Of a DNA stretch of 64,000 nucleotides, positions 1 through 38,633 are shown piece after piece. The stretch's first letter is position 1; each line of letters begins with the position of its first letter. Source of the stretch: a bacterium ADurb.Bin212 (GTDB taxonomy: Bacteria; Patescibacteriota; UBA1384; XYA2-FULL-43-10); contig MWCM01000004.1 in assembly GCA_002070055.1 (NCBI GenBank), positions 10,257 to 74,256 on the forward strand, written 5' to 3'. Under the pieces are notes generated by a model. That model was not told the DNA's origin and searched no databases. It saw nothing but the letters and a program-made list of their open reading frames with translations. Position numbers and translations under genes: made by a program.

Positions 1-730
1 CCTTTTTGGGAATTCCCCGAGTCATCCAGTTGTCGTAAATGTCGGGATCGACAAATTCCTGGGGAAACTCTTGTAGGAAGCCATTTTTTACATTTTTTGC
101 AGTGATAAGTCTCATTCCAGACTCAGTTTTTTGTGGTGTTTTTCCCCTATAATCAATAAATCTAACGTGCTTCACTAATGGACATGTTTCCCAATCTTCT
201 CCGGGATTGTTAAAAATGCTATTAATGTAAGATTCGAAAAGTTCACGAGCGTTTTGCAAATTTTTTTCTGTATTGTTTTTTGCTTTTTCAATTTTCTCAA
301 ATGCTTCATCCAATTTTTTAACAATTCTTTTTTGCTCATTAAGCGAATCTGGGATATTGACGCTTATCGCGTAGACATCGTTGCGATTAATGCCCGGCTT
401 AACCCCTTTTGCAAGTCCTTGTAAATTCAGGGTCTGTAATAGACGATAGATAAACTGTAAATCGTATTTCTTTTTATCAAAAGTTACGTAGTATGTTACA
501 TCTAATGGCCAAAATTTTCCCTTAGTTAATGTTAATTCTCCTGCCGAGCCTTTTCTGCCAACAATAATACTCCCATTGTCATAATAATATGTATCGCTCC
601 AACTTTTGATTCCATTAGCACCGTACACTGGAAACTTCCCATCAGAAATTCGCTCAGATTTTGGTAATGGTTTACCATACTCTAGCTTTAATATTTCGCC
701 AAGCTTTTTTATTCGCCAATTATCGTTCAT
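1..730 (-). CDS. hsdS: Type I restriction-modification specificity subunit HsdS (N-terminal target-recognition domain; 3' part lies beyond the window start)
   Basis: By my translation the minus-strand ORF starts at ATG 730..728, overlapping the stop of the upstream gene by 11 nt. It runs without a stop to position 1. It reads MNDNWRIKKLGEILKLEYGKPLPKSERISDGKFPVYGANG... then ...ITAKNVKNGFLQEFPQEFVDPDIYDNWMTRGIPKK, which is a typical HsdS target-recognition domain pattern. The ORF track did not list it because it runs off the edge. Confidence 0.7.
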   Translation of the reverse strand, partial: MNDNWRIKKLGEILKLEYGKPLPKSERISDGKFPVYGANGIKSWSDTYYYDNGSIIVGRKGSAGELTLTKGKFWPLDVTYYVTFDKKKYDLQFIYRLLQTLNLQGLAKGVKPGINRNDVYAISVNIPDSLNEQKRIVKKLDEAFEKIEKAKNNTEKNLQNARELFESYINSIFNNPGEDWETCPLVKHVRFIDYRGKTPQKTESGMRLITAKNVKNGFLQEFPQEFVDPDIYDNWMTRGIPKK

Positions 731-2150
731 AAGCCCAACTGTCATATTTTATATGTTTTCTTTGGTTGATATATTCAATCAACATATCGTAAAACATTTC
801 TTTCTCTTGGTTACCTTCTATTTTTACCCCAAACCTATTTTCCTTGCGATATTTGTAATTTCTCCATGAAGCGAGAATTGTTTCTTCATCTGGAATATTA
901 AGGCCAAGAGGTCTCAACATAATTGAAATGTAGTATTCATATGGTATACGCCTATTGTCTCTTTTGAGGTCATAGTGTTTAATTTTGACGAGTTTGCCAC
1001 TTAAAGTATCCATATTTGAAAATGAATGAATAGCAATTTTAACAGCGATATCGAATATTTTCTGAGCATTGTCAGAAAAAGCTTCCTCGTAGTAGCCACC
1101 CTTTTTGAGTTCAGTTAATTGATATCTTGAGCCTTTCAGTAGTTCTCTCAAGTTAATTATCCCGCACCCTATAGCCCTCTCATAAATATCTTTCAAAAAA
1201 AGATTTATATAACCAGAATGACCAAATGCCCCAGTTAGGCTCTGATCTTCACACTTAAAACTTTTAATAATATTATCTACAGTATCAAGAAGAGCTTTTT
1301 TGTTATCAAAGTAATAAGGTGCAATTGAAAAGAACTTATCGATATAACCTGAAAAATCAGCATCAGGTCCATATTTATGGTGAAAAACATGCTTTAAGTT
1401 CGAATAATCGCCTACAATAATAACCGAGTCAAACCCAAATTTATTCTCGTGTTCTTTTTCAAAATAAGCGGACAATATGTTTAATATCCTGAAAATATGT
1501 TCGGGGTCTATTCTGTCTAAATCATCTAACACAAGAACACTTTTTTTATTGCCCTTTTGTTGAATAATTTTATCTCGAAGTAAATTACTAATGTAGTCTT
1601 CTTCAGATATGTCCTTTTCTTTCAGTTTTTCAATGTATTTCTCTGCGAGCCCTTTCTCTCCTTTTTCGAACTCTTTTTTAAAATCTTGATATTCTTTATC
1701 CATTTTGAGCAAACTCTTTAAAGGTCTGCCAAGCTTACCTGAAATACCAAAGATAGGATTAGGCAATGTATCAAGAGTTGATAAAGTTGACTGTAATATT
1801 GAATTCAGGGAGTTACTTTTTCTATACCATGAGAAAAAAAGAAGGGCAGAATCCTTGATCCCTTGTATCTTTTTAGTCGTGAGAATATCGTTGTTCTTGT
1901 CTAACAGCTCGATAAGAATGTCATATTTTATCAGCTCAATGATATCTTCATTGTTGCTTATTTCATAGTTAACTGGAAATAAGTGAAAAACCTCATAGTT
2001 ATCTGTGTTTGAATCAAAAAATTCTTTCAAAAAATACGTCTTACCAATTCCAAATTTACCAGAAAAAAATATCCTAGAATTATTTTCCGTATCTAAAAAT
2101 AATTTGAAATTCTCTTGTACTGTATCAATTGGAATTAATATATCGGGCAT
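720..2150 (-). CDS. KAP-family-like P-loop NTPase inserted between hsdM and hsdS
   Basis: Walker A is GKFGIGKTYFLKEF. Walker B followed by the KAP-signature arginine is VLVLDDLDRIDPEHIFRILNIL. There are no obvious TM insertions. The start overlaps the hsdM stop by 1-3 nt and the stop overlaps the hsdS start, so the three genes are co-transcribed. Confidence 0.6.
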   Translation of the reverse strand: MPDILIPIDTVQENFKLFLDTENNSRIFFSGKFGIGKTYFLKEFFDSNTDNYEVFHLFPVNYEISNNEDIIELIKYDILIELLDKNNDILTTKKIQGIKDSALLFFSWYRKSNSLNSILQSTLSTLDTLPNPIFGISGKLGRPLKSLLKMDKEYQDFKKEFEKGEKGLAEKYIEKLKEKDISEEDYISNLLRDKIIQQKGNKKSVLVLDDLDRIDPEHIFRILNILSAYFEKEHENKFGFDSVIIVGDYSNLKHVFHHKYGPDADFSGYIDKFFSIAPYYFDNKKALLDTVDNIIKSFKCEDQSLTGAFGHSGYINLFLKDIYERAIGCGIINLRELLKGSRYQLTELKKGGYYEEAFSDNAQKIFDIAVKIAIHSFSNMDTLSGKLVKIKHYDLKRDNRRIPYEYYISIMLRPLGLNIPDEETILASWRNYKYRKENRFGVKIEGNQEKEMFYDMLIEYINQRKHIKYDSWAYER

Positions 2151-2151
2151 A

Positions 2152-3627
2152 TTATTTTACTTTCAGAATTTTCTCAACCTCTTTTAGGGATAGATTTGCT
2201 CGTATGTCTAATTTTCTAACGTCTTCCAAGATCTTTTCAGGCGGCAGTATTAAACTACCTTCCCTATTATTCGGATTTTTAACCGAGAGATCAAATGTTT
2301 TTTGGCTGATGTCGGAAACATCGATTGTCCAAGAATTTTCTGAATCGGTTTTTGTTTTTTGTAACTCTAGGAATTCCGCAAGATCTTTTTCGGTTAAAGG
2401 ATTTGTTTTGCCAAGATTACGATCGAGGTTTAATTGGTAATACCAAATCTTTTGAGTTGGTGCACCTTTTTCAAAAAACAGCACAACAGTCTTAACCCCC
2501 GCCTGAAAAACTTTTGCTGGAAGATCAAGGATTGTATGAACATTGCAGTTTTTTAGTAACTCTTGGCGCAGACTTGAGGCATCGCCGTTAGATAAAAAGG
2601 TATTTTTTATAACAATGCCTGCCTTGCCCCCGGCTTTCAATTTTTTAATATAATGCTGTAAAAAGAGATAGGCAGTTTCGCTACTTTTAATGGGAAAGTT
2701 TTGCTGGACTTCACTTCGTTCTTTTCCGCCGAAAGGAGGATTAGTTAAAATAATATCGTAGCGGTCTCTTTCTTGAATGTCAGCGATATTTTCTGAAAGT
2801 GTATTCGCATGAACTATGTTTGGCGCTTCAATGCCGTGTAATATCATATTCATAATGCCGATAATGTAAGGAAGCGGTTTTTTCTCGATGGCATAAAAAG
2901 TTTTTTTTTGAAGTATTTCTATGTCTGAAGTTGATAGATTTTTACTGTTTTTAAGGTAATCAAATGCCTCAACCAAGAAGCCAGCTGAGCCAACGGCGCC
3001 ATCGTAAATTTTGTCACCAATCTTTGGGCCGACTACTTTAACAATCGTGCGAATCAGAGGACGCGGGGTATAGTATTCTCCACCATTACGACCTGCATTA
3101 CCCATGTTTTTGATTTTGCCTTCGTATAGGTGAGACAGCTCATGCTTCTCTGATTGTGATCGAAAATGCATTTGATCGACGATATCTAAAATATTGCGAA
3201 GTGTATAACCAGAATGAATTTTATTTCTAATTTCTGAAAATATTTCACCGATTTTGTATTTAATGGTATCTGGTTCGGCATCCGTTTTGAATTTTCTAAG
3301 ATATGGGAAGAGTTTGTGATCGACAAAATCTCGCAAATCATCACCTGATAGAGCCTTATTATGGTCCAATTTACCATCAGCGGTTTTGGGTGCAGCCCAA
3401 ACATCCCAGCGGTATTCTATATTTAAAATAAATTTATATTCTTTGCCGGCAAGAAGAGCTTCTTTTTGTTTTTGTTCTTCGAGATCGTTCAAATACTTAA
3501 GGAAAAGAATCCAAGATGTTTGCTCAACGTAATCTAGCTCACTTGAAACGCCAGCATCTTTCCGAAGGGTATTGTCAATATTCTTAAATGTTTGTTCAAA
3601 ACTAATTTTTGAATTTGTGTCGAGCAT
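2152..3627 (-). CDS. hsdM: Type I R-M N6-adenine DNA methyltransferase subunit HsdM
   Basis: The N-terminus is HsdM-like (LDYVEQTSWILFLKYLNDLE). Motif I region is GEYYTPRPLIRTIVKVV...GDKIYDGAVGSAGFLVEA. The catalytic motif is ILTNPPFGG. Length is 491 aa. Confidence 0.9.
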   Translation of the reverse strand: MLDTNSKISFEQTFKNIDNTLRKDAGVSSELDYVEQTSWILFLKYLNDLEEQKQKEALLAGKEYKFILNIEYRWDVWAAPKTADGKLDHNKALSGDDLRDFVDHKLFPYLRKFKTDAEPDTIKYKIGEIFSEIRNKIHSGYTLRNILDIVDQMHFRSQSEKHELSHLYEGKIKNMGNAGRNGGEYYTPRPLIRTIVKVVGPKIGDKIYDGAVGSAGFLVEAFDYLKNSKNLSTSDIEILQKKTFYAIEKKPLPYIIGIMNMILHGIEAPNIVHANTLSENIADIQERDRYDIILTNPPFGGKERSEVQQNFPIKSSETAYLFLQHYIKKLKAGGKAGIVIKNTFLSNGDASSLRQELLKNCNVHTILDLPAKVFQAGVKTVVLFFEKGAPTQKIWYYQLNLDRNLGKTNPLTEKDLAEFLELQKTKTDSENSWTIDVSDISQKTFDLSVKNPNNREGSLILPPEKILEDVRKLDIRANLSLKEVEKILKVK

Positions 3628-3655
3628 ATTATCCTTATTTGTTATGTAGTTTCTT

Positions 3656-3928
3656 TTATTTGCTCCTTAATAACTCTTCTATTTTCTCAATAAATCTTTT
3701 ATAACTCACGATTTCCTTATCAATCTTTACCCCACCGGACCAGAGGTATAGCCAATCACCGTTTTTTGCTGTCATCTTTGCATCCGGATGTTCGTGGTAT
3801 TCTCTAACCAAATTCTCGGGACCGTTTCGCAGTAATCTTAAAATCTCTTTTGAAAAGTCATTGTCTTGGTCTTGCAGTGCTTTGGTAAAATCCGTAATCA
3901 ATTCGTTGAGGTTGCTGTAACTTTTCAT
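3656..3928 (-). CDS. hypothetical small protein (90 aa) immediately upstream of hsdM in the same gene string
   Basis: ORF sits 28 bp upstream of hsdM on the same strand. No recognisable motif. Confidence 0.4.
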   Translation of the reverse strand: MKSYSNLNELITDFTKALQDQDNDFSKEILRLLRNGPENLVREYHEHPDAKMTAKNGDWLYLWSGGVKIDKEIVSYKRFIEKIEELLRSK

Positions 3929-4073
3929 TTTTGTAATAAAAGATAATTTTAATTAACAATAAATAGTCAAATCCCGACTAGTTATCTCTCTTTAATTTAT
4001 AAGTCGATTATACCACTTTCACACCTGATATGGAAGAGAACGAAGCTGTTTTTAATCACTATAAGGATAAGGC

Positions 4074-4439
4074 CTAATACTTGTCCAATATCGCTTTCAT
4101 CTCCTTTAGAATTTTCTTCTTATAAACTCCGATGGCGTAATCCAGATGCAATTTCATTCTTTCAGGAGAGTTTTTCGCCGACAGCTTTTTATCCGGTTGG
4201 GACTTTACTTCTTTTGCAATCCCTCGAATAAACTTTTTGTCGAAAGCATCCGGCTTTTGGGCTTCTTTCTCAATATCCAACCACCAGCGAAGCTCGGCTA
4301 TCAATTTGGCAAAGCTTGCCCCGTCCTTATGATTAAGTATTACGCCGTTTTTTCTCTTGACAGTGGCGATTGCTTTCTTTATGTCTTCCTTTGTCGGTTC
4401 GGAAATATCCGGTTTGAACGCTTTTTGATCTTTCATCAT
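4074..4439 (-). CDS. hypothetical protein (121 aa), lysine-rich
   Basis: ORF between the PLD nuclease and the 90-aa ORF, same strand, tightly spaced. No recognisable domain. Confidence 0.4.
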   Translation of the reverse strand: MMKDQKAFKPDISEPTKEDIKKAIATVKRKNGVILNHKDGASFAKLIAELRWWLDIEKEAQKPDAFDKKFIRGIAKEVKSQPDKKLSAKNSPERMKLHLDYAIGVYKKKILKEMKAILDKY

Positions 4440-4444
4440 ACTCC

Positions 4445-5161
4445 TTAACTAAATAGGGTAAATATCGCTCTCATACATTTTAACGATAATACAATCAGAT
4501 TGGAAATAACAGCCGGCAACTTGCTGATAAACTTAGGAACGGAAATCTTCGGGATCATAATTTTTAATCTTGGTCGAAAACTAAACTTTTTCCTGTCAAC
4601 CAAACTTCGATATAACCTCTCATACTGGTATTTATAACCCTCGGCCAGCTTTTTATTAAGCCCCAAGTGGTCCATGACCTGTTTGGCCATGTCTTCGTCT
4701 TCGCTTCGGCGCATCATCTCCCGGCTTTCTCTTTGCGATAGGATATTCAAACTCCCATCCCAAAGGATCTTGCGATCGATAACCGCTGTCTTGGCATGAA
4801 CCAGCCCGGGCAAGGGGATTATGCAGGCTCCCAGCTCCTCGTAATCTTTCAGCGCCGCCTTAATTTCGCTCCTCACAATCAACTCGTGATCTTCAATCGA
4901 CCTGGTGAAGATAAACACGGCAATATTGCGATATTTGAGCTGTTTAAATATCCGGCTGAAATATTCCGAGCGATATTTGGAGATAAAGGGTGAATAAATT
5001 ATGACCTCCTTCTCCGCCAAAAGGAGATCGCGAGAGAAAGATTTATAAAATGATTTTTCATCATATAGATCGAGCTTTCGCGATTCTCTATACTTTTCGG
5101 CATCGATTTCATTTTGCCTGTTTTCAAAATGCCTTTTTAGCGTCGGTGATAATGTTTTCAT
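4445..5161 (-). CDS. PLD-family (HKD motif) nuclease
   Basis: HKD motif is LVHAKTAVIDRKILWDGSLNILS (HxK-x4-D-x6-GSxN). The most plausible start is ATG 5161..5159 (MKTLSPTLKRHF), preceded by AAGGAGG at the right spacing. The ORF-track extension to 5308 is probably non-coding leader and would run into the divergent HTH gene. Confidence 0.7.
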   Translation of the reverse strand: MKTLSPTLKRHFENRQNEIDAEKYRESRKLDLYDEKSFYKSFSRDLLLAEKEVIIYSPFISKYRSEYFSRIFKQLKYRNIAVFIFTRSIEDHELIVRSEIKAALKDYEELGACIIPLPGLVHAKTAVIDRKILWDGSLNILSQRESREMMRRSEDEDMAKQVMDHLGLNKKLAEGYKYQYERLYRSLVDRKKFSFRPRLKIMIPKISVPKFISKLPAVISNLIVLSLKCMRAIFTLFS

Positions 5162-5224
5162 ATTCCTCCTTATAATTATTTTGTTAATCTGGATTTTTAG
5201 GTTTGAAAGTGATATATTCTGGAT

Positions 5225-5440
5225 ATGACAGCCAAACACAGCGGGAATATTTACAAAGGTCTCGGCGACAAGCTTAAGAAGTATCGGGAAGCGGCCAAGA
5301 TGACGCAAGCCAAGGTAGCCGAATTAGCGGGTATCCATGTTAACTATTACGCTAGAATGGAAAGGGGCGAGGAAAATCCGACACTGGAAGTGTTGCATAA
5401 GCTAAAGGAAGTACTGAAAATAAAGTCAGATTTAGTCTGA
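5225..5440 (+). CDS. XRE-family helix-turn-helix transcriptional regulator
   Basis: HTH core is MTQAKVAELAGIHVNYYARMERGEENPTLEVLHKLKEVL. It is divergent from the PLD nuclease/hsdM gene string with a ~60-bp shared intergenic region. Confidence 0.75.
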   Translation: MTAKHSGNIYKGLGDKLKKYREAAKMTQAKVAELAGIHVNYYARMERGEENPTLEVLHKLKEVLKIKSDLV

Positions 5441-5517: not shown

Positions 5518-7035
5518 TCAGGTCCACCAAATTTCATTTTTCGCAATTTCTTCCGCTTCGCTCGGCGCTTCGCGCCTCGCTTGCGGTGGCAAATTCAAGA
5601 GTAAATTGTATTGTTTTTGAAAATTCATATTGAGTTTTCCGCCCAGAAGAATGCGGTTCGAGCCGGCGGTTTTAAGAAAATTTCTCATAGCGGAGAAATT
5701 TTTTGTTTTAACAAAATTTTCAGCTTGGTTGGCGTCATAAATCCAATTTTTCAAGAGTTCGAGCCAATGATTTCCCTTTCGCTCAAAATCTCTTAACTTT
5801 TCTTCAAACTCGGCTTTTTGCTCGATAAGTTTGTTTTTCTTTTCTTTGAATTCCTCTAGCTCCAAAGCTCCGTCTAAATATGCGTCAGAAAGCCGATCAA
5901 GCCGAGTTTTGATATATTCTATTTTCTCTTTTAGATTTTGAGCGAAAACAGCCGACGAGTGGTTTTCTTCATTTTCCCACTCTTTGATCTGTAGCATATA
6001 CTTTTCTTTCCACTCGTCGGGTAAAGAAACTGTTTGACAAAGTTCTTCTATCTGTTGCGCTAAAACTTCTTCACGAACGAACTTTCGCTCGGTGCAATTT
6101 TGGGTTTTGCTTTTATGGGTGCAACGATAGTAAACATACTCTCTACCACTTGGCTTAAACTTTCTCTCAGCAGTTATGGCATAACCGCAACTTCCGCATT
6201 TGGCAAAACCCAAAAACTTTAGTTCTCGTTCAGTTCGTTTCTTGCGGGGTTTAGAGTGGTCTTTTAGCGCAACTTGGATTTTGTCAAAAGTTTCTTTTGA
6301 AATCATTGGCTTATGGGAACCTTGATAGAGTTCGCCATCATAACTTATGACGCCGTAATAAAATGGCTTTGTTAAAATCTTCTGTATAGATGACAAAGCC
6401 ATTTTATTGCCATCTTTGCCAACCAAGCCAAGAGAAAACATTTTTGCTTGAATTTTAGTTAGCGAAAACTCGCCAGAGGCAAAAAACTCCAGCGTTTTCT
6501 TAACCAAAGGAAATGTCTTTTTGTTTGGCTCAATAGTTCTAAGTCTTGGCTCGTTGAAGTAACCGAGTGGAGCTTTGCTTGGCAATTCTCCTCGGCGAAG
6601 TTTTTGCCTGATTCCTCGCAAAATGTTTTCTCTTAAATTGTCGGTGTAATATTTGGCTTGGCCAAAGGCAACGCTTAACATAAACTTTCCTTGCGGAGTT
6701 GCCTCAAACCAAAAGGTTGGGAATTTTAGCGAAGTAATTTTTCCGGTATCGACTAAATAGATAACTCTTCCGCCATCAACAGAGTTTCGGGCTAAACGAT
6801 CTGGGTTCCAGGCTAAAATTCCCGAAGCGTTGCCTTTTTCAATTTCCAAAAGCATTTGGTTAAAAATCGGTCGCCCAGGCTCCTTGGCGGTTCGACTTTC
6901 GGTAAATTCACGGACGATCATTAAGTCATTTTGTCGGGCAAAATCGCGTAGCTCTTGGAGCTGGGCTTCAATAGACAAAATTTGCCTTTCTTCCTCTTCG
7001 GAAGATTTACGGCAATAGATAAAGTACTTTTCCAT
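5518..7035 (-). CDS. large serine recombinase (resolvase/invertase catalytic domain, recombinase domain and zinc-ribbon)
   Basis: The N-terminus FIYCRKSSEEEERQILSIEAQ carries the catalytic Ser context. The recombinase domain contains GYFNEPRLRTIEP. A Cys cluster CGSCG...CTHKSKTQNC forms a zinc ribbon. It ends in a coiled-coil C-terminus. AAGGAGGG precedes the ATG. Confidence 0.85.
   Translation of the reverse strand: MEKYFIYCRKSSEEEERQILSIEAQLQELRDFARQNDLMIVREFTESRTAKEPGRPIFNQMLLEIEKGNASGILAWNPDRLARNSVDGGRVIYLVDTGKITSLKFPTFWFEATPQGKFMLSVAFGQAKYYTDNLRENILRGIRQKLRRGELPSKAPLGYFNEPRLRTIEPNKKTFPLVKKTLEFFASGEFSLTKIQAKMFSLGLVGKDGNKMALSSIQKILTKPFYYGVISYDGELYQGSHKPMISKETFDKIQVALKDHSKPRKKRTERELKFLGFAKCGSCGYAITAERKFKPSGREYVYYRCTHKSKTQNCTERKFVREEVLAQQIEELCQTVSLPDEWKEKYMLQIKEWENEENHSSAVFAQNLKEKIEYIKTRLDRLSDAYLDGALELEEFKEKKNKLIEQKAEFEEKLRDFERKGNHWLELLKNWIYDANQAENFVKTKNFSAMRNFLKTAGSNRILLGGKLNMNFQKQYNLLLNLPPQARREAPSEAEEIAKNEIWWT
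5521..5660 (-). repeat. Repeat copy A: the 3' end of the intact serine-recombinase gene (last ~45 codons), homologous to copies B and C
   Basis: The reverse complement of 5521-5660 aligns at ~85% identity with 7150-7286. The shared encoded peptide is ...NRILLGGKLN(M/I)NFQKQY.LL.NLPPQAR....EAE....NE.WW. Confidence 0.8.
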
Positions 7036-7156
7036 AATTCCCTCCTTAAATTTTGTCTATTAACCAAATGCTTTTATGTACCGACAATTTATTGAAAATT
7101 TTGTTCCCGCCGGCTCTAAAGAATTACATTCTTTTCTGTGCTTCGCACAGAAACCG

Positions 7157-7334
7157 CATTTTGCTGGGCGGAAAACTCAATATTAATTTTCAAAAACAAT
7201 ATGAATTACTCTCGAATTTGCCACCGCAAGCGAGAGCCATTGGCTCGAGCGAAGCGGAACAAAAAGCAATAAATGAAAAATGGTGGTGTGTTTTGAACGA
7301 AGCTCGAACTTTTTTCGAAAAAAATACTCAATAA
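7157..7334 (+). pseudogene. orphan C-terminal fragment of a serine recombinase gene
   Basis: It encodes RNRILLGGKLNINFQKQYELLSNLPPQARAIGSSEAEQKAINEKWWCVLNEARTFFEKNTQ*, homologous to the last ~45 residues of the intact recombinase. No upstream recombinase body is present, because the sequence 5' of 7150 is unrelated. Confidence 0.6.
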
Positions 7335-7344
7335 ATTTTCGCTC

Positions 7345-7458
7345 GCGCGGCCGTGAAGGGGCGTGGGGAGGAAACGGCCGCGCTCGCTCAAAATGTTTTC
7401 AAAAATGCAATTTGCTCGTGCGTGCGCAGGAAGGGGTGTGGGGAGGGAATGCGCACGC
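7345..7458 (+). other. GC-rich twin-hairpin module; it recurs in reverse orientation at ~10671-10784
   Basis: Hairpin 1 is gcgcggccg / 21-nt G-rich loop tgaaggggcgtggggaggaaa / cggccgcgc. Hairpin 2 is gcgtgcgc / 23-nt loop aggaaggggtgtggggagggaat / gcgcacgc. The module is ~70% GC in a ~35% GC genome. Confidence 0.6.
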
Positions 7459-7561
7459 TCTCGCTTTTTGGGGCGGGGCGAAAAAATAGCAGAAAAGGTA
7501 AGCTTATGCTAATTATAGTATGTAGTATCAAAATTAGCAATTAGCTTATACTGATGATAAA

Positions 7562-7780
7562 ATGAGTAAAGAAAAAGTTCTAGAAAAATTTGGCATCAGA
7601 GTTCGACAAGAACGGATGAAATTGGGTTTATCGCAAGAAGCTTTGGCAGACAAGGCTGGAGTACACCGAACTTATGTCGGCATGATTGAAAGAGCAGAAA
7701 AAAATATTACTTTGCTCAACATTGAAAAAATTGCCAAAGCATTAAAAATAAGTATAAATAATTTAACAAAGTGGGACTGA
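7562..7780 (+). CDS. XRE-family HTH protein, likely an R-M controller (C-protein)
   Basis: HTH is LSQEALADKAGVHRTYVGMIERAEKNITLLNIEKIAKAL. It sits 3 bp upstream of the REase gene. A dyad GCTAATT-N17-AATTAGC (7508-7538) upstream is a possible operator. Confidence 0.65.
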   Translation: MSKEKVLEKFGIRVRQERMKLGLSQEALADKAGVHRTYVGMIERAEKNITLLNIEKIAKALKISINNLTKWD

Positions 7781-7783
7781 ATT

Positions 7784-8668
7784 ATGAATAAATTATGGTG
7801 CAAAGATTGCGAAAAAGACTTTTTCTTTAGTGCATTGAAATTGGCAACTCCAGAACAATTATTTTACGTTACTAGCGACCAGAAGTATTGTGCTTATTGG
7901 CCGAAAAAATACGGCGACGTAAAATCGACTCTCCAAAGCAGAAACTCTCTTATTGGAAACTACACTGAAAAATGGGGTGTTGAGCTTTTTAGAGAAATTG
8001 CTGAAAAGCTTGGTGGCTTTTCGGTTCAGGGCGTTATTTGTGAAGAAATTGGTCTAACTCGACAATCTGCTGCCGATGTGGCGATTTGCAAAACAAAGAA
8101 TGTGATTCAAAAGCCAGAAAACATTTTGATGATTTTTGAAATTAAGATGTCGATAACTTGGAACTGGGAGCTTAAGCAACGAGGCAAGGAATATGATCTG
8201 GTATGTCTTGGCGATTACAACACTCACCAAGGAAATCCAAGTTTGCTAAGATCTGATTCAATGTTGAAAGCTATTGGGAAAAGTATCAATATTCGAGTTT
8301 CAAGTTTTGCGGCTAGTAAAATTCCAATCGTGATAATTGGTAATACACCGATCACAAGCTCCTATTATAAAAAAGTTGATCACTTGAAACAAAGCGGAAT
8401 TATTCAAGGTTTTTGGTCCGTCAATCCCGAGCCATTGGACAATAACAAAGAAAGCTTAGAAAAAACGAAGCTCGGTGGTTTCATCAGAATTAACAAATAT
8501 GACGAACTTGTAAAAATGACGCTCGATCTAGGTGCAGACGATAGAGAATTCTTTTCAAGCATGCAAAACAAACAAAGACTTGGAGAAATAATTAAAATTG
8601 CAAATCAGGAAGAAACCGAAGAAGCGAAAGCTCAAAAATTTCTTGAACTTATTAGGGAGGTAGAGTAA
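7784..8668 (+). CDS. putative Type II restriction endonuclease (PD-(D/E)xK-like)
   Basis: It lies between the C-protein-like gene and the methyltransferase gene. A candidate catalytic core is ...AADVAICK...ILMIFEIKMS (D...E-x-K). There is no match to other families that I can recognise. Confidence 0.45.
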   Translation: MNKLWCKDCEKDFFFSALKLATPEQLFYVTSDQKYCAYWPKKYGDVKSTLQSRNSLIGNYTEKWGVELFREIAEKLGGFSVQGVICEEIGLTRQSAADVAICKTKNVIQKPENILMIFEIKMSITWNWELKQRGKEYDLVCLGDYNTHQGNPSLLRSDSMLKAIGKSINIRVSSFAASKIPIVIIGNTPITSSYYKKVDHLKQSGIIQGFWSVNPEPLDNNKESLEKTKLGGFIRINKYDELVKMTLDLGADDREFFSSMQNKQRLGEIIKIANQEETEEAKAQKFLELIREVE

Positions 8669-9574
8669 ATGGCAGAAGTTAAGACACGAAAAGGAACAGA
8701 AACCAGCTCTTTCGGTACACCTGGAAGAAGCAATCATGATGCTTCCAAATTTTATGCAAGCAAAATGTATAGTGGTTTGAATAACGGCAACGGAGATGTT
8801 GAATATCGCGAAAATCCGATCAAAGAAGAATATATCAACAAAATATTCTGCAAAAGTAGCGAGAAAATGTCGGAGCTTCCCAATGACAGTGTTCATATTA
8901 TGATCACTTCCCCGCCATATAATGTTGGAAAGGATTATGACAAGGATTTGAGTCTGGACGACTACCGAAAACTCCTATACAGAGTTTTCAAAGAAACATA
9001 CCGAGTGCTAGTTCCTGGCGGTAGGGCTTGCATAAACATCGCCAACTTAGGCAGGAAGCCATATCTTCCTTTGCATAGTTATATTATTGAAGACATGGCA
9101 GAAATCGGTTATATCATGCGAGGTGAAATTATTTGGGATAAAGGTTCAAGTGCCAGTCCTTCAACCGCTTGGGGTTCGTATCTTAAAGCTAATAATCCCG
9201 TCTTGCGTGATGTTCATGAGTATATACTTATTTTTTGCAAAGAAACTTATTCGATGCAAAACTTGCATAAAAAGAAAAGTACAATCACTAAAGAAGAGTT
9301 TATGGAATATACCAAAAGCGTCTGGAAGTTTGCCGCTCAAAGGGCTTCAAAGGTTGGACATCCGGCGCCTTTTCCTCTCGATCTTCCATCGCGCCTGATT
9401 AAGCTATACACTTTCGAAAATGATGTTGTTCTCGATCCGTTCACTGGCGCCGGAACGACAAATGTTGCCGCCTTAGAACTCAATCGTAGGCATATTGGTT
9501 ATGATGTTGATAAAAAGTATTGCGATTTAGCAGAAAACAGAATAATGCAATGCAAAAGTAAATTACCATTATAA
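8669..9574 (+). CDS. DNA methyltransferase, beta-class (motif IV SPPY precedes motif I FxGxG); likely N4-cytosine or N6-adenine
   Basis: Motif IV is IMITSPPYNVGKDYD. Motif I near the C-terminus is VVLDPFTGAGTTNVAALE. Length is 301 aa. Confidence 0.85.
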   Translation: MAEVKTRKGTETSSFGTPGRSNHDASKFYASKMYSGLNNGNGDVEYRENPIKEEYINKIFCKSSEKMSELPNDSVHIMITSPPYNVGKDYDKDLSLDDYRKLLYRVFKETYRVLVPGGRACINIANLGRKPYLPLHSYIIEDMAEIGYIMRGEIIWDKGSSASPSTAWGSYLKANNPVLRDVHEYILIFCKETYSMQNLHKKKSTITKEEFMEYTKSVWKFAAQRASKVGHPAPFPLDLPSRLIKLYTFENDVVLDPFTGAGTTNVAALELNRRHIGYDVDKKYCDLAENRIMQCKSKLPL

Positions 9575-9978
9575 TGGAAAATAAACGCAAACATTTAGAG
9601 TTTATTCAAAACGTTATCAGTCGAATGGCTGGCAATCTATTTTTTCTTCGTGGCTGGACTATAACGTTAATTGCTGCATTACTTGCTCTCTTTGCTAAAG
9701 GTGGAAACCATACCTATATACTTTATTTTCTGATTGTTTTGATAATAGTATTTTGGATTTTAGACGGATTTTTTTTATCTCAAGAACGACTTTTTCGTGA
9801 CCTCTACAATGATGTCCGCTTACTAAAAGAAGAAAAAATAGATTTCAACATGGATGTTTCGCCTTATAAAAATTACAAAAAGAATACACTAATCTTTTCT
9901 ATGTTTTCTTCGACTTTATTAATATTTTACATTCCACTTGTCATCACTGCCTTGGTTATTATCTATTTAGTAAAATAA
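9574..9978 (+). CDS. small integral membrane protein (3 predicted TM helices), translationally coupled to the methyltransferase
   Basis: The start ATG overlaps the methyltransferase stop (taATGg). Hydrophobic segments are WTITLIAALLALFA, YILYFLIVLIIVFWILDGFF and LIFSMFSSTLLIFYIPLVITALVIIYLV. Confidence 0.5.
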   Translation: MENKRKHLEFIQNVISRMAGNLFFLRGWTITLIAALLALFAKGGNHTYILYFLIVLIIVFWILDGFFLSQERLFRDLYNDVRLLKEEKIDFNMDVSPYKNYKKNTLIFSMFSSTLLIFYIPLVITALVIIYLVK

Positions 9979-9986
9979 GAATTATT

Positions 9987-10643
9987 ATGGCTAAAAAAAT
10001 TTTTGTGAGTTATAAGCACAATGATCAGAGTGTTAAACCGCTAAAACAATATCTAACAGCAACTGCCAGAGATTATGTCGACGAACTTGAGAAGTATTTT
10101 GAAGAGGGAGACTTTATCTACAAAGGAGAGGATGTCGACAACGACCTGAGCAATCTGACAGACGGAAGTATCGCTCAAATCCTTTACGACAAAATATATG
10201 ACAGCTCGGTAACAATAGTTTTAGTTTCAAAAAATATGAGAGATTATAAAACCGAGAAGGATCAATGGATACCTCGAGAAATCTCTTACTCCCTTACTGA
10301 AAATAACAGGGGTGAAAGGATTAGCGCTACCAATGCTATGCTCGCTGTAGTTTTACCGGATGAAAATGGCGATTACTCATACATCGTCACACATCACCCA
10401 TGCGTGACACGCTGGAATACAGCTTCGTTATTCAACATTCTCAACCAAAATATGTTTAACAGGAAAAGTAAAAACACCTATCAATGCACTGATTGTTACG
10501 GGCAACACCATACTGGAAAAGACCATTCATATATTCACCCGGTCAAATGGGATGATTTTATTTTGGATATCGATGGTTATATAAACTTAGCTACGGAAAT
10601 TCAACAGAATATTGATGAATACGATATAGCAAAAGAATTATAA
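9987..10643 (+). CDS. TIR-like domain protein (ThsB / DUF1863 / MTH538 type) with a Cys/His-rich C-terminal extension
   Basis: The N-terminus is KIFVSYKHND, the TIR strand-1 pattern. The central region is SVTIVLVSKNM...QWIPREISYSL, matching the DUF1863 S..VLIG...W..YEI pattern. The C-terminus is HHPCVTRW...YQCTDCYGQHHTGKDHSYIHP, a possible zinc site. It starts 8 bp after the TM-protein stop. Confidence 0.6.
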   Translation: MAKKIFVSYKHNDQSVKPLKQYLTATARDYVDELEKYFEEGDFIYKGEDVDNDLSNLTDGSIAQILYDKIYDSSVTIVLVSKNMRDYKTEKDQWIPREISYSLTENNRGERISATNAMLAVVLPDENGDYSYIVTHHPCVTRWNTASLFNILNQNMFNRKSKNTYQCTDCYGQHHTGKDHSYIHPVKWDDFILDIDGYINLATEIQQNIDEYDIAKEL

Positions 10644-10648
10644 TTCCG

Positions 10649-10920
10649 CCCCCGCCCCAAAAAGCGAGAGCGTGCGCATTCCCTCCCCACACCCCTTCCT
10701 GCGCACGCACGAGCAAATTGCATTTTTGAAAACATTTTGAGCGAGCGCGGCCGTTTCCTCCCCACGCCCCTTCACGGCCGCGCGAGCGAAAATTTATTGA
10801 GTATTTTTTTCGAAAAAAGTTCGAGCTTCGTTCAAAACACACCACCATTTTTCACTTCGTGCCAATTCTTCCGCTTCGCTCGAGCCTTCGGCTCTCGCTT
10901 GCGGTGGTAAATTCAAGAAT
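10649..10920 (-). repeat. Repeat copy C: the GC-rich twin-hairpin module plus a recombinase 3'-end fragment, an inverted copy of B
   Basis: Positions 10649-10867 are nearly identical to the reverse complement of 7480-7262. Positions 10790-10920 encode, on the minus strand, ...LPPQARAEGSSEAEELARSEKWWCVLNEARTFFEKNTQ*. The upstream body position is occupied by the APH-like kinase gene. Confidence 0.85.
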
Positions 10921-31323: not shown

Positions 31324-31398
31324 ATTAGCTTGATGCGGGGTGGAGCAATGGCAGCTCGTCTGGCTCATAACCAGAAGGTTGACGGTTCGAATCCGTCC
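31324..31398 (+). tRNA. initiator tRNA-fMet (CAU)
   Basis: The sequence .GCGGGGTGGAGCAATGGCAGCTCGTCTGGCTCATAACCAGAAGGTTGACGGTTCGAATCCGTCCCCCGCTACCA closely parallels the E. coli initiator tRNA. Positions 1:72 are mispaired. CCA is encoded. Confidence 0.75.
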
Positions 31399-31644
31399 CC
31401 CGCTACCAAAATTAGAATTATGAATAATGAATAAATAATTATGATACGGTCATAAAAATATGCATTGTTTATAATTCGTTTTTTTTATATTATAAGACTA
31501 GCAAAGATATTTAATAATTATAAATTGTATTTGGCGGGGTAGCTTCCGCCAAAGGCGGACAGGCATCTTCGCTACCCTGATTCTAATAATAAGTTAAGTA
31601 TTCCATTATTTTAAATTTTTGCTTTTAAATTTTAAATTGTTTTT

Positions 31645-31721
31645 GGCAGGGTAGCTCAGATGGTTAGAGCGCGGGACTCATAAGCCCGAGGTCGAGAGTT
31701 CGATCCTCTCCCCTGCTACCA
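31645..31721 (+). tRNA. elongator tRNA-Met (CAU)
   Basis: GGCAGGGTAGCTCAGATGGTTAGAGCGCGGGACTCATAAGCCCGAGGTCGAGAGTTCGATCCTCTCCCCTGCTACCA. The D-arm and T-arm are canonical. The anticodon is CAT. Confidence 0.8.
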
Positions 31722-38558: not shown

Positions 38559-38633
38559 GGGCCCATAGCTCAGTGGTAGAGCGCCCGGCTCATAACCGGT
38601 TGGTCGCAGGTTCGATCCCTGCTGGGCCCACCA
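38559..38633 (+). tRNA. tRNA-Ile2 (CAU; the lysidine-modified Ile isoacceptor) is the most likely identity
   Basis: GGGCCCATAGCTCAGTGGTAGAGCGCCCGGCTCATAACCGGTTGGTCGCAGGTTCGATCCCTGCTGGGCCCACCA. The variable loop and T-arm are close to E. coli ileX. The 1:72 pair is G-C, so it is not an initiator. Confidence 0.7.

What the first reader, a model, noticed from the sequence alone, without database searches (positions are those of the whole stretch)
5521..10920. Three copies of a serine-recombinase 3'-end element in alternating orientation partition the island into modules
Copy A (5521-5660, minus) is the true 3' end of the intact large serine recombinase gene. Copy B (7150-7480, plus) and copy C (10649-10920, minus) are orphan recombinase C-terminal fragments, each followed by the same GC-rich twin-hairpin module. 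B and C are ~100% identical over ~219 bp as inverted repeats flanking the C-protein/REase/MTase/TM/TIR cassette. A and B are inverted repeats at ~85% identity flanking the recombinase gene body. Two readings are possible. The first is an inversion (shufflon-like) system, in which inversion between A and B would give the recombinase an alternative C-terminal tail and inversion between B and C would flip the defence cassette. The second is serial integration of related elements into the 3' end of a resident recombinase gene, each bringing a replacement 3' end, as tRNA-targeting integrative elements do, followed by rearrangement. The perfect palindrome tctgtgcttcgcacaga at 7134-7150 marks one boundary.
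Basis: seen in the sequence. Interest (0 to 1): 0.75.

Follow-up and report, generated by a model that had tools for sequence, protein, structure and literature searches.

The report
Integrase island with three att junctions
The three repeats are the recombination junctions of a mobile defence-gene island that is widespread in ultra-small (CPR) bacteria; its serine integrase carries its own crossover site inside the end of its gene, so moving the island changes the enzyme's tail.

Summary
Copies A (5524-5658), B (7152-7478) and C (10650-10918) exist as described. They are not a local oddity.

In 64 of 66 related CPR loci with enough upstream sequence, the last 124-136 nt of a conserved 500-aa large serine recombinase (LSR) gene recurs inverted just upstream of it. 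That block ("a") ends exactly at two Trp codons, TGGTGG.

- Beyond the gene-side copy lies the 3' end of a tRNA-Ala or tmRNA gene.
- Beyond the upstream copy lie a conserved 15-20-codon "native tail" and GC hairpins ("b"), then a C-protein-led R-M/defence cassette.
- In 23 of 36 loci an inverted second copy of b follows, and it usually stops at the same core.

So a|b is an attP-like site inside the LSR ORF. A is the tRNA-side junction, C the far junction and B an intact internal copy. One contig with a 448-nt inverted repeat and no exit to host DNA suggests a circular form.

In this window the tRNA is reduced to 12 nt. C abuts a 77-nt stub of an older LSR gene, which points to accretion.

Both first-reader readings are partly right. 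What flips the segments, and what B and the tail swap do, is inferred. I found no published description.

The parts
5518..7035 (-). Intact large serine recombinase (LSR) gene, 505 aa, ending ...NEIWWT*; it lacks the family's native tail.
   Evidence: ORF. Pfam Resolvase, Recombinase and Zn_ribbon_recom. Translation. 5,987 homologues at E<=1e-20; the top 120 are 65-95% identical over full length.
5524..5658 (-). Copy A = block 'a' (a_R): the last 45 codons of the LSR, forming the gene-side inverted repeat. The core TGGTGG (two Trp codons) lies at 5524-5529.
5518..5529 (+). 12-nt remnant TCAGGTCCACCA, identical to the 3' end of the tRNA-Ala(cgc) that flanks the closest relative (L002). The rest of the tRNA is absent.
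   Evidence: No tRNA-Ala is present in the window.
7036..7151 (-). LSR 5' leader and presumed promoter region, with a hairpin (7-8-bp stem, 3-nt loop) at 7134-7152 on the inner edge of copy B.
   Evidence: Sequence. The consensus promoter scan found nothing convincing here.
7152..7286 (+). Copy B, block 'a' (a_L): an inverted duplicate of the LSR 3' end. Core TGGTGG at 7281-7286.
   Evidence: An equivalent copy is present in 64 of 66 related loci with enough upstream sequence.
7287..7334 (+). Native tail, in frame with a_L: CVLNEARTFFEKNTQ*. This is the conserved C-terminus of full-length family members.
7340..7478 (+). Twin GC-rich hairpins with G-rich loops GAAGGGGYGTGGGGAGGRAA. Together with the tail they form block 'b' of copy B.
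   Evidence: No Rfam family matches.
7562..10643 (+). Cargo segment: C (control) protein 7562-7780; 294-aa protein with no family match (putative REase) 7784-8668; Type II N4/N6 MTase 8669-9574; PDC-M50A membrane protein 9574-9978; ThsB-like TIR protein 9987-10643.
   Evidence: Pfam and PADLOC. Related elements have the same HTH-first R-M layout.
10650..10841 (-). Copy C, block 'b': twin hairpins (10650-10790) and native tail (10794-10841), identical to B's.
   Evidence: An equivalent inverted third copy occurs in 23 of 36 related loci.
10842..10918 (-). Copy C, core (10842-10847) plus a 71-nt stub of a different LSR 3' end (a_C; ...LNLPPQARAEGSSEAEELARSEKWW). It is 91-94% identical to the gene-side copies of relatives L003 and L087.
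   Evidence: The peptide was read by hand from the sequence.

Best explanation
The region is an integrated, somewhat decayed member of a very large CPR/Patescibacteria family of integrative defence-cargo elements driven by a large serine recombinase (LSR).

The element's attachment site is a|b. 'a' is the last ~130 nt of the LSR ORF. The core is CCAC/GTGG within the two Trp codons. 'b' is a 15-20-codon native tail plus GC hairpins.

The free form would be a circle carrying two copies of a|b in inverted orientation. These split it into an LSR segment and a cargo segment.

Recombination of one copy with the 3' end of a tRNA-Ala (less often tRNA-Val/Glu/Leu or tmRNA) gene splits that copy into two junctions:
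- junction A (a|tRNA), where the LSR loses its tail and the tRNA's last nucleotides are supplied by the element;
- junction C (b|host).

The second copy, B, stays intact inside the island.

In this window:
- A keeps only 12 nt of the tRNA;
- B is the internal copy;
- C joins the incoming tail to the 77-nt stub of an older resident LSR gene. The element therefore landed on the a|tRNA junction of an earlier element (accretion), after which the older gene and the tRNA were deleted.

Shown: the anatomy, its conservation, the junction positions and the tRNA/tmRNA target. Inferred: the circular intermediate, that the LSR catalyses these events, and that the tail swap and the internal copy B regulate or re-arm the enzyme.
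For: 1. Family-wide inverted 'a' copies. 64 of 66 loci with enough upstream sequence have them, mostly 95-100% identical, and all end at TGGTGG.

2. tRNA/tmRNA on the gene side. 42 of 49 loci have a convergent tRNA (37 Ala, 4 Val, 1 Glu) whose last ~6 nt lie in 'a'. Others have tmRNA or tRNA-Leu.

3. A conserved tail on the other side. The outer flank of the upstream copy always reads W-W-C-[LV]-L-x-x-[VA]-R-T-x-F-E-x-N-P* in frame. Arg codon switches (AGA/CGA/CGG) indicate protein-level constraint. 21 of the top 120 database homologues carry this tail; 85 carry tRNA-antisense extensions or stop within 3 aa.

4. A third copy that stops at the core. An inverted third copy of 'b' (65-397 nt, 94-100% identical) is found in 23 of 36 loci. 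In 18 of them identity to B stops at the CCAC core and unrelated DNA follows.

5. Consistent cargo. It is always led by an HTH control protein, followed by R-M or defence genes.

6. A circle-like contig. L088 (12,034 nt) holds 1.5 units of an 8,026-nt sequence with a perfect 448-nt inverted repeat (a+b) around a full-length LSR, and no exit to host DNA.

7. Alternative arrangements. L087 and L049 have the tmRNA or tRNA-Ala on the upstream-copy side, and L087 has the LSR reading into the native tail. In L087 the two 'a' copies differ by 8%, so its orientation is reliably assembled. Compared with the window, the flanks are exchanged exactly at the core.

8. Accretion. 'a' remnants beyond the core at C occur in the window (77 nt), L002 (19 nt) and L025 (21 nt). 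The window's a_C matches genuine LSR 3' ends of relatives.

9. Tail structure. In an AF2 model of the 95%-identical, native-tail homologue P0001, the core falls mid-way in a predicted terminal helix (residues 493-520, pLDDT 73-89). Residues beyond ~417 extend past the part alignable to A118 integrase.
Against: - No read-level data: neither a circle junction nor an empty site was recovered for this element. An exact search for its gene-side copy in metagenomes found nothing.
- The circle-like contig and some 'isomers' come from short-read assemblies, in which long inverted repeats allow ambiguous paths.
- This copy looks partly decayed. There is no tRNA next to A, and a_A and a_B are only 85% identical. 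It may no longer move.
- Under the established rules for serine integrases (attP x attB only; PMC3783163), an intact internal attP has no obvious partner, so the role of B is unexplained.
- 13 of 36 loci show no third copy within reach. Cargo-less derivatives at tmRNA (L096-L099) end at the hairpins without a second 'b'.
- No directionality factor was identified.
- The suggestive 5-nt outward shift of a GAAC motif in the tail arm relative to the tRNA arm is statistically weak (0.335 versus about 0.25 identity).
Confidence: 0.7

Rival explanations
1. A dedicated, programmed inversion switch (shufflon- or Hin-like). The LSR is an invertase that flips its own gene (A x B) to toggle its C-terminus, and flips the defence cassette (B x C) for phase variation. 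Mobility would be secondary or absent.
For: The recombinase gene lies inside an inverted-repeat-bounded segment in virtually all loci. Both orientations relative to the tRNA/tmRNA exist among relatives (L049, L087). An apparently flipped cargo occurs in L020. Near-perfect repeat identity within elements suggests ongoing exchange.
Against: - The outer junctions sit on different tRNA/tmRNA genes in different lineages, and C ends at the core against unrelated host DNA. That is the signature of integration.
- 42 of 49 loci are in one orientation, not a mixture.
- The cassette carries its own control protein and, presumably, its own promoter inside the invertible part, so flipping it should not switch expression.
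- The enzyme is a 500-aa integrase-type LSR, not a ~190-aa invertase.
Confidence: 0.15
2. A 2-micron-like episome. The element is primarily a small plasmid whose recombinase and long inverted repeats serve copy-number amplification or isomerisation. The chromosomal copies are occasional integrations.
For: L088 has two unique segments separated by perfect 448-nt inverted repeats that contain the recombinase target. One cargo includes a Replic_Relax gene (L084).
Against: Most cargoes have no replication gene. Nearly all genome-resolved copies are chromosomal at tRNA/tmRNA. No relative above 30% identity exists in 72,556 plasmid records.
Confidence: 0.08
3. An insertion sequence. The 1.6-1.8-kb unit (a'-LSR-a), with 124-136-bp terminal inverted repeats, transposes on its own. 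B is simply its left end, and 'b' and the cargo are target DNA.
For: The unit size is constant and many database contigs are 1.6-2.1 kb. The repeats end sharply at the same hexamer.
Against: The flank beyond the left end is always the in-frame, protein-conserved native tail plus hairpins, co-varying with the LSR, so it belongs to the element. The other flank is always a tRNA/tmRNA end. No unit was seen at an unrelated site. The short contigs are what assemblers produce at inverted repeats.
Confidence: 0.05
4. A neutral duplication or an assembly artefact confined to this contig.
For: The independent NCBI contig of the same organism breaks at window 7762.
Against: That contig is identical through A and B. 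The same three-copy layout is present in dozens of assemblies from different studies, including a closed genome (CP055308.1).
Confidence: 0.01

Closest known systems
Large serine integrases of phages and integrative elements (A118/LI, phiC31, Bxb1, SPbeta SprA, TnpX/TndX)
   Same: Same domain architecture: resolvase catalytic domain, recombinase domain and zinc ribbon with a long helical insert. Junctions share only a 4-6-nt core, as expected for a 2-bp staggered crossover without long homology.
   Different: Here the attP-like site lies inside the integrase's own ORF, so integration replaces its last 15-20 residues. The target is the extreme 3' end of tRNA-Ala/tmRNA. A second, intact, inverted attP-like copy stays inside the integrated element. 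There is a ~100-aa family-specific C-terminal extension. No directionality factor is evident.
SSV-type 'suicidal' tyrosine integrases of archaea (PMC7253208)
   Same: The recombination site lies within the integrase ORF. Integration into a tRNA gene disrupts the gene. Hybrid genes can be reassembled from parts of different origin, as with copy C here.
   Different: These belong to a different enzyme superfamily (tyrosine, not serine) and a different domain of life. They split into two large pseudogenes, whereas here only the terminal half-helix is exchanged and the ORF stays intact. No spare inverted copy is described there.
Yeast 2-micron plasmid (FLP/FRT within 599-bp inverted repeats) — from my own knowledge and the abstracts listed
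   Same: A circular element divided into two unique segments by long, perfectly matched inverted repeats that contain the recombinase target. Two isomeric forms exist.
   Different: FLP is a tyrosine recombinase. 2-micron is a replicating nuclear plasmid, and its inversion serves amplification. It is not integrative and has no ORF-embedded site.
Invertible segments with small serine invertases (Hin/hix, Gin/Cin/Pin) and Rci shufflons — from my own knowledge
   Same: The recombinase gene can sit inside the invertible segment (Hin). Inversion swaps alternative C-terminal coding ends (Mu G segment, PilV shufflon).
   Different: Those use ~190-aa invertases with a Fis/enhancer, or a tyrosine recombinase (Rci), and 26-31-bp sites. 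The variable protein is a tail fibre or pilin, not the recombinase. They are not tRNA-linked and carry no cargo.
tRNA-targeting genomic islands with tyrosine integrases — from my own knowledge
   Same: They integrate at the 3' end of tRNA/tmRNA genes, restore the tRNA end from element sequence, and accrete tandemly at the same site with cargo of defence genes.
   Different: Those islands are flanked by direct repeats of 15-50+ nt of the tRNA. Here only a 4-6-nt core is shared, and the long repeats are inverted and element-internal.

Membership tests
Large serine recombinase (integrase-type) | N-terminal resolvase catalytic domain, recombinase domain and zinc-ribbon domain in one ~450-700-aa protein | tested here: met
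   Pfam PF00239 (E 4e-20), PF07508 (E 5e-10) and PF13408 (E 2.5e-9). The A118 integrase C-terminal domain aligns to residues 191-417.
Large serine recombinase (integrase-type) | Recombination between short att sites that share only a central crossover sequence, giving hybrid junctions | tested here: inconclusive
   Junction comparison shows a shared core of only 4-6 nt (CCAC/CCACCA) between a|b, a|tRNA and b|host. This is compatible, but catalysis was not observed.
Large serine recombinase (integrase-type) | attP and attB half-sites differ by a 5-bp shift of the zinc-ribbon motif (PMC3783163) | tested here: inconclusive
   GAAC lies at +20 in the tail arm and +15 in the tRNA arm. The best arm-to-arm identity is at a +5 shift, but only 0.335 against about 0.25 background. 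The tail arm is also under protein constraint.
Small serine DNA invertases (Hin/Gin/Cin/Pin) | ~190-aa protein with a catalytic domain plus C-terminal HTH; 26-bp inverted sites; enhancer | tested here: not met
   The protein is 505 aa with recombinase and zinc-ribbon domains. The repeats are 124-450 nt.
Shufflon (Rci type) | Tyrosine recombinase with multiple short sfx repeats that shuffle alternative 3' ends of one structural gene | tested here: not met
   The enzyme is a serine recombinase. There are only three sites. The outer sites abut tRNA and host DNA.
IS607-type or other serine transposons | Mobile unit consisting of the recombinase gene(s) alone, inserted at varied sites | tested here: not met
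   The unit is always found between a tRNA/tmRNA end and the conserved tail/hairpin block.
SSV-type suicidal integrases | attP inside the integrase ORF; integration into a tRNA gene | tested here: met
   The core lies in the two Trp codons 15-20 codons before the native stop. tRNA/tmRNA flanks are present.
SSV-type suicidal integrases | Tyrosine recombinase catalytic fold | tested here: not met
   The protein has a resolvase-type serine catalytic domain.
2-micron-like plasmids | Autonomous replication, with recombinase-driven inversion between long inverted repeats | tested here: inconclusive
   The inverted-repeat geometry is met in L088. No replication gene occurs in most cargoes. The recombinase is from a different superfamily.
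tRNA-targeting tyrosine-integrase islands | Direct repeats of the tRNA 3' part at both island ends | tested here: not met
   Only the 4-6-nt core is common to both ends. The enzyme is a serine recombinase.

The most novel reading that the evidence does not exclude
The family encodes a self-contained, DNA-borne control of a large serine integrase. Because the crossover lies in the middle of the enzyme's last helix, integration itself removes that helix. The internal inverted a|b copy lets the gene regain it, by recombining at the core with the tRNA-side junction, which still carries the tRNA half-site. Activity or directionality would then be set by which flank the gene reads into, with no separate directionality factor. 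The same property would explain accretion onto resident elements.
Probability: 0.25. Interest if true: 0.85.

Novelty: new variant of a known kind. Interest (0 to 1): 0.78.

Why it matters
- It would be a bacterial, serine-recombinase counterpart of the archaeal 'suicidal' integrases. It adds a built-in spare copy of the attachment site that may let the enzyme be re-armed. That bears directly on the open question of how serine integrases control directionality.
- It appears to be a dominant vehicle for restriction-modification and other defence genes across CPR/Patescibacteria: 575 or more loci among species-representative genomes, and thousands of proteins. These organisms have tiny genomes and few known mobile elements.
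- It gives a defined, conserved landing site (the tRNA-Ala/tmRNA 3' end) and a matched integrase. That could be useful for genetics in a group with almost no tools.
- It explains recurrent contig breaks and 1.6-2.1-kb orphan contigs in CPR assemblies.

Tried and rejected
- Exact search for this element's gene-side copy in the metagenome collection, to find alternative junctions: no hits.
- IMG/VR: only two partial, distant hits. Annotated plasmids: nothing above 30% identity.
- Rfam at gathering and E-value thresholds: no family for the hairpins or 'a'.
- Single-sequence folding of 'b' and 'a': energies no better than shuffles (z -1.6 and +0.1). Only the comparative covariation is informative.
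- Promoter and terminator consensus scans: nothing above background in the LSR leader.
- The attP/attB 5-bp motif-shift test: the peak is at the expected shift but weak, so it is not used as evidence.
- Using near-identical LSRs with different tails (P0034 versus P0185, 99.8%) as proof of recent switching: rejected. The P0034 contig is a 2-kb repeat-bounded fragment whose flanks may be an assembly path.
- The IS-like reading of the a'-LSR-a unit, considered early, was rejected once the tail flank proved conserved and in frame.
- Literature searches found no description of this architecture.

Full report
**What is in the window**

- B (7210-7478) and C (10650-10918) are inverted repeats: 269 nt, 96% complementary.
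- A and B are inverted over 5576-5658/7152-7234 (92%) and 5524-5564/7246-7286 (83%).
- A and C are direct repeats of 77 nt (81%).

The three-way alignment places all B/C differences in the recombinase-derived part. The downstream tail and twin hairpins are identical.

A is the 3' end of an intact 505-aa gene, 5518-7035 (-), with Resolvase, Recombinase and zinc-ribbon domains. B and C read in frame as recombinase C-termini that run 15 codons further than the gene itself...WW-CVLNEARTFFEKNTQ*. C's was read by hand from the sequence and is supported by tblastn. The gene ends ...WW-T*.

No other recombinase fragment or hairpin copy exists in the 64 kb.

Between B and C lie five genes:
- a control (C) protein;
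- a 294-aa protein with no family match (putative REase);
- a Type II MTase;
- a PDC-M50A membrane protein;
- a ThsB-like TIR protein.

**The key lead: where homologues stop being alike**

The recombinase belongs to a very large family. 5,987 proteins score E<=1e-20 among the 8,000 candidates scored. The best 120 are 65-95% identical over the full length, and those with names come from Berkelbacteria, Parcubacteria, Shapirobacteria and similar groups.

Their C-termini are conserved up to two tryptophans and then fall into classes:
- 21 of 120 continue with the same motif as copies B and C (C-[LV]-L-x-x-[VA]-R-T-x-F-E-x-N-P);
- 51 continue with peptides typical of antisense tRNA or tmRNA (…GDSNPRPPACKAGALPAEL…);
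- 34 stop within three residues.

TGGTGG is the reverse complement of CCACCA. The point of divergence is therefore the very 3' end of a tRNA on the other strand.

**The architecture is family-wide**

I fetched 80 loci from species-representative genomes.

*The inverted 'a' copies.* In 64 of the 66 loci with enough upstream sequence, the last 124-136 nt of the gene ('a') recur inverted about 100-150 nt upstream of the start codon. Identity is mostly 95-100%, and both copies end exactly at TGGTGG.

*The gene-side flank.* Beyond the gene-side copy, 42 of 49 testable loci have a convergent tRNA: 37 Ala, 4 Val and 1 Glu. Its last ~6 nt (two acceptor bases, the discriminator and CCA) lie inside 'a'. 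Others have tmRNA (L038, L061, L087) or tRNA-Leu (L020).

*The upstream flank.* Beyond the upstream copy, read outward and in frame, lies the native tail followed by GC-rich hairpins ('b'). Arginine codon switches in the tail (AGA, CGA, CGG) show that it is conserved as protein.

*The cargo.* Beyond 'b' comes an HTH control protein and R-M or other defence genes in every case examined. L082 is a closed Woesebacteria genome; the others are L083, L084, L088 and L089.

*The third copy.* In 23 of 36 loci with enough sequence, 'b' recurs inverted 1.3-5.9 kb further on at 94-100% identity. In 18 of these, identity to the inner copy stops at the CCAC core, after which unrelated DNA follows.

tRNA | a' <-LSR a | b ->cargo b' | host

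**What this implies**

Two junctions, a|tRNA and b|host, share only a 4-6-nt core with an a|b site. That is the signature of conservative site-specific integration of a molecule in which 'a' and 'b' are joined, that is, an attP that lies within the recombinase ORF.

Contig L088 fits the free form. It has:
- 1.5 copies of an 8,026-nt unit;
- a perfect 448-nt inverted repeat (a + tail + hairpins) on either side of the LSR body;
- a full-length LSR;
- no exit to host DNA.

Such a circle has two inverted a|b sites. Using one for integration leaves the other intact, which is copy B. I treat the circle as suggestive, because long inverted repeats let short-read assemblers trace ambiguous paths.

The closest concept I found in the literature is the archaeal SSV-type 'suicidal' tyrosine integrases. 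Their attP lies in the int ORF and they integrate into tRNA genes (PMC7253208). Here the enzyme is a serine recombinase and only the C-terminal end is exchanged.

An AF2 model of the 95%-identical, native-tail homologue P0001 puts the two tryptophans (503-504) in the middle of a terminal helix (493-520, pLDDT 73-89). The overall model is mediocre (mean pLDDT 68.7), so I use it only at this level. Residues beyond ~417 lie outside the part alignable to A118 integrase.

**Alternative arrangements**

- L087 (LSR 95% identical to the window's) and L049 have the tmRNA or tRNA-Ala on the upstream-copy side. In L087 the LSR reads into the native tail; the L049 contig ends at the gene's 3' end.
- In L087 the two 'a' copies differ by 8%, so its orientation is not an assembly ambiguity.
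- Compared with the window, each 'a' allele stays attached to its side of the gene and the flanks are exchanged exactly at the core. This points to a site-specific event, not a homologous crossover inside 'a'.
- L020 appears to have the cargo in the opposite orientation.
- L093 and L089 differ in the orientation of the cargo relative to the LSR. These last cases rest on short-read assemblies.

Both segments therefore occur in both orientations somewhere in the family. The strong bias in genomes (42 of 49 canonical) argues against free flipping.

**This window in particular**

Three features depart from the canonical form.

1. A is followed by only 12 nt identical to the 3' end of the tRNA-Ala that flanks the closest relative (TCAGGTCCACCA). 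Unrelated DNA and a second defence island follow (HTH, PLD-like, Type I R-M with KAP NTPase). No tRNA-Ala is present in the window.

2. C extends 77 nt beyond the tail into a third 'a' allele. That allele matches genuine LSR 3' ends of relatives at 91-94%. Shorter 'a' remnants occur at the same place in L002 (19 nt) and L025 (21 nt). The simplest reading is accretion. The present element recombined with the a|tRNA junction of an older resident element. The resident gene received the incoming tail and the incoming gene received the tRNA flank. The older gene was then deleted down to a stub.

3. a_A and a_B are only 85% identical. The same two alleles occur in L087, so this is a lineage trait rather than random decay.

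Inversion at the cores of A and B would give an in-frame, full-length gene.

**What remains inferred**

I have no read-level evidence for excision, integration or inversion of this copy.

Under the established rules for serine integrases, attP recombines only with attB (PMC3783163). An internal attP then has no partner, and the function of B is open.

The accretion cases suggest that an a|tRNA junction can still serve as a target. If so, A x B inversion by the LSR itself becomes plausible. The tail swap could act as a built-in activity or directionality control. I give this about 0.25.

The motif-shift test for attP- versus attB-type half-sites peaked at the expected +5 but weakly.

Some loci lack a third copy. 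Cargo-less derivatives next to tmRNA-smpB end at the hairpins, so decay and variants are common.

**Comparison and novelty**

The protein is a member of the large serine recombinases. The system is not a shufflon, a Hin-type switch, an IS607-type transposon or a tyrosine-integrase island; the membership table gives the details.

It combines four things:
- an ORF-embedded attP, as in SSV integrases;
- a tRNA/tmRNA 3'-end target;
- a 2-micron-like pair of long inverted repeats carrying the site;
- defence cargo.

Eight literature searches found no description. That is not proof of absence, because subscription journals are poorly covered. I class it as a new variant of a known kind (serine-integrase integrative elements), with high interest because of its ubiquity in CPR bacteria and its unusual site logic.

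Noticed in passing
window 5564-5576 (A), 7234-7246 (B), 10882-10894 (C); equivalent position in related loci: A GC-rich hairpin (5-9-bp stem, 3-nt loop) sits inside the coding part of 'a'. It keeps pairing through compensatory changes: GGCGC/GCGCC, GAGCC/GGCTC, GGGGC/GCCCC, CCCGCGCC/GGCGCGGG and others. At least 12 distinct GC-rich stems occur among 42 unique variants. The encoded peptide (AEARGEAPSEA-like) varies freely and has indels. Selection seems to act on intrastrand pairing (RNA or ssDNA), not on the protein.
   Followed up: partly
window 7354-7374, 7429-7449, and mirrored at 10682-10696 and 10757-10771: The twin hairpins have different stems but a shared G-rich loop, GAAGGGGYGTGGGGAGGRAA. 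An exact scan found 89 metagenome stretches. Of the 80 fetched, 35 have an LSR homologue or a native-tail fragment within 500 nt. There is no Rfam family. The loop occurs in either orientation relative to the tail in different loci.
   Followed up: partly
window 5676-5703; related loci about 10 nt inside the inner edge of the gene-side repeat: A 36-46-nt imperfect palindrome lies within the LSR coding sequence (motif NFSEMKNFLK), next to the inner boundary of 'a', in about 35 loci (self-inverted hits). Copy B has a different hairpin (7134-7152) at its own inner boundary.
   Followed up: no
window 1-5440 (continues in L001): A second defence island sits directly beyond copy A: an HTH gene (5225-5440), a PLD-like gene (4445-5308), HsdM (2152-3627) and a KAP-family NTPase (720-2150). 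HsdS, HsdR and a PD-(D/E)XK protein follow in L001. It may have displaced the tRNA-Ala.
   Followed up: partly
L087 1834-2235; L038 1790-2190; L061 1744-2148; L096-L098: tmRNA genes serve as alternative targets, often with smpB next door. L096-L099 are cargo-less derivatives (LSR + a + b only) between an ABC transporter operon and tmRNA, and L096 also has an IS110-family transposase about 3 kb upstream.
   Followed up: partly
L172 1969-1988 and 5501-5520: Two inverted native tails are both preceded by the same non-recombinase sequence (…PFRVIF*WW…). Here the inverted repeat extends past the core into something other than 'a'.
   Followed up: no
window 40933-51255 (-); 31334-31408, 31645-31721, 38559-38633: A 3,440-aa ORF and three tRNA-Met genes occur within 7.3 kb of each other. 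They are unrelated to the finding.
   Followed up: no
window 7762 (L001 position 1): The NCBI contig JAKJEJ010000008.1 of the same organism is identical to the window through A and B. It ends inside the C-protein gene rather than at a repeat.
   Followed up: no
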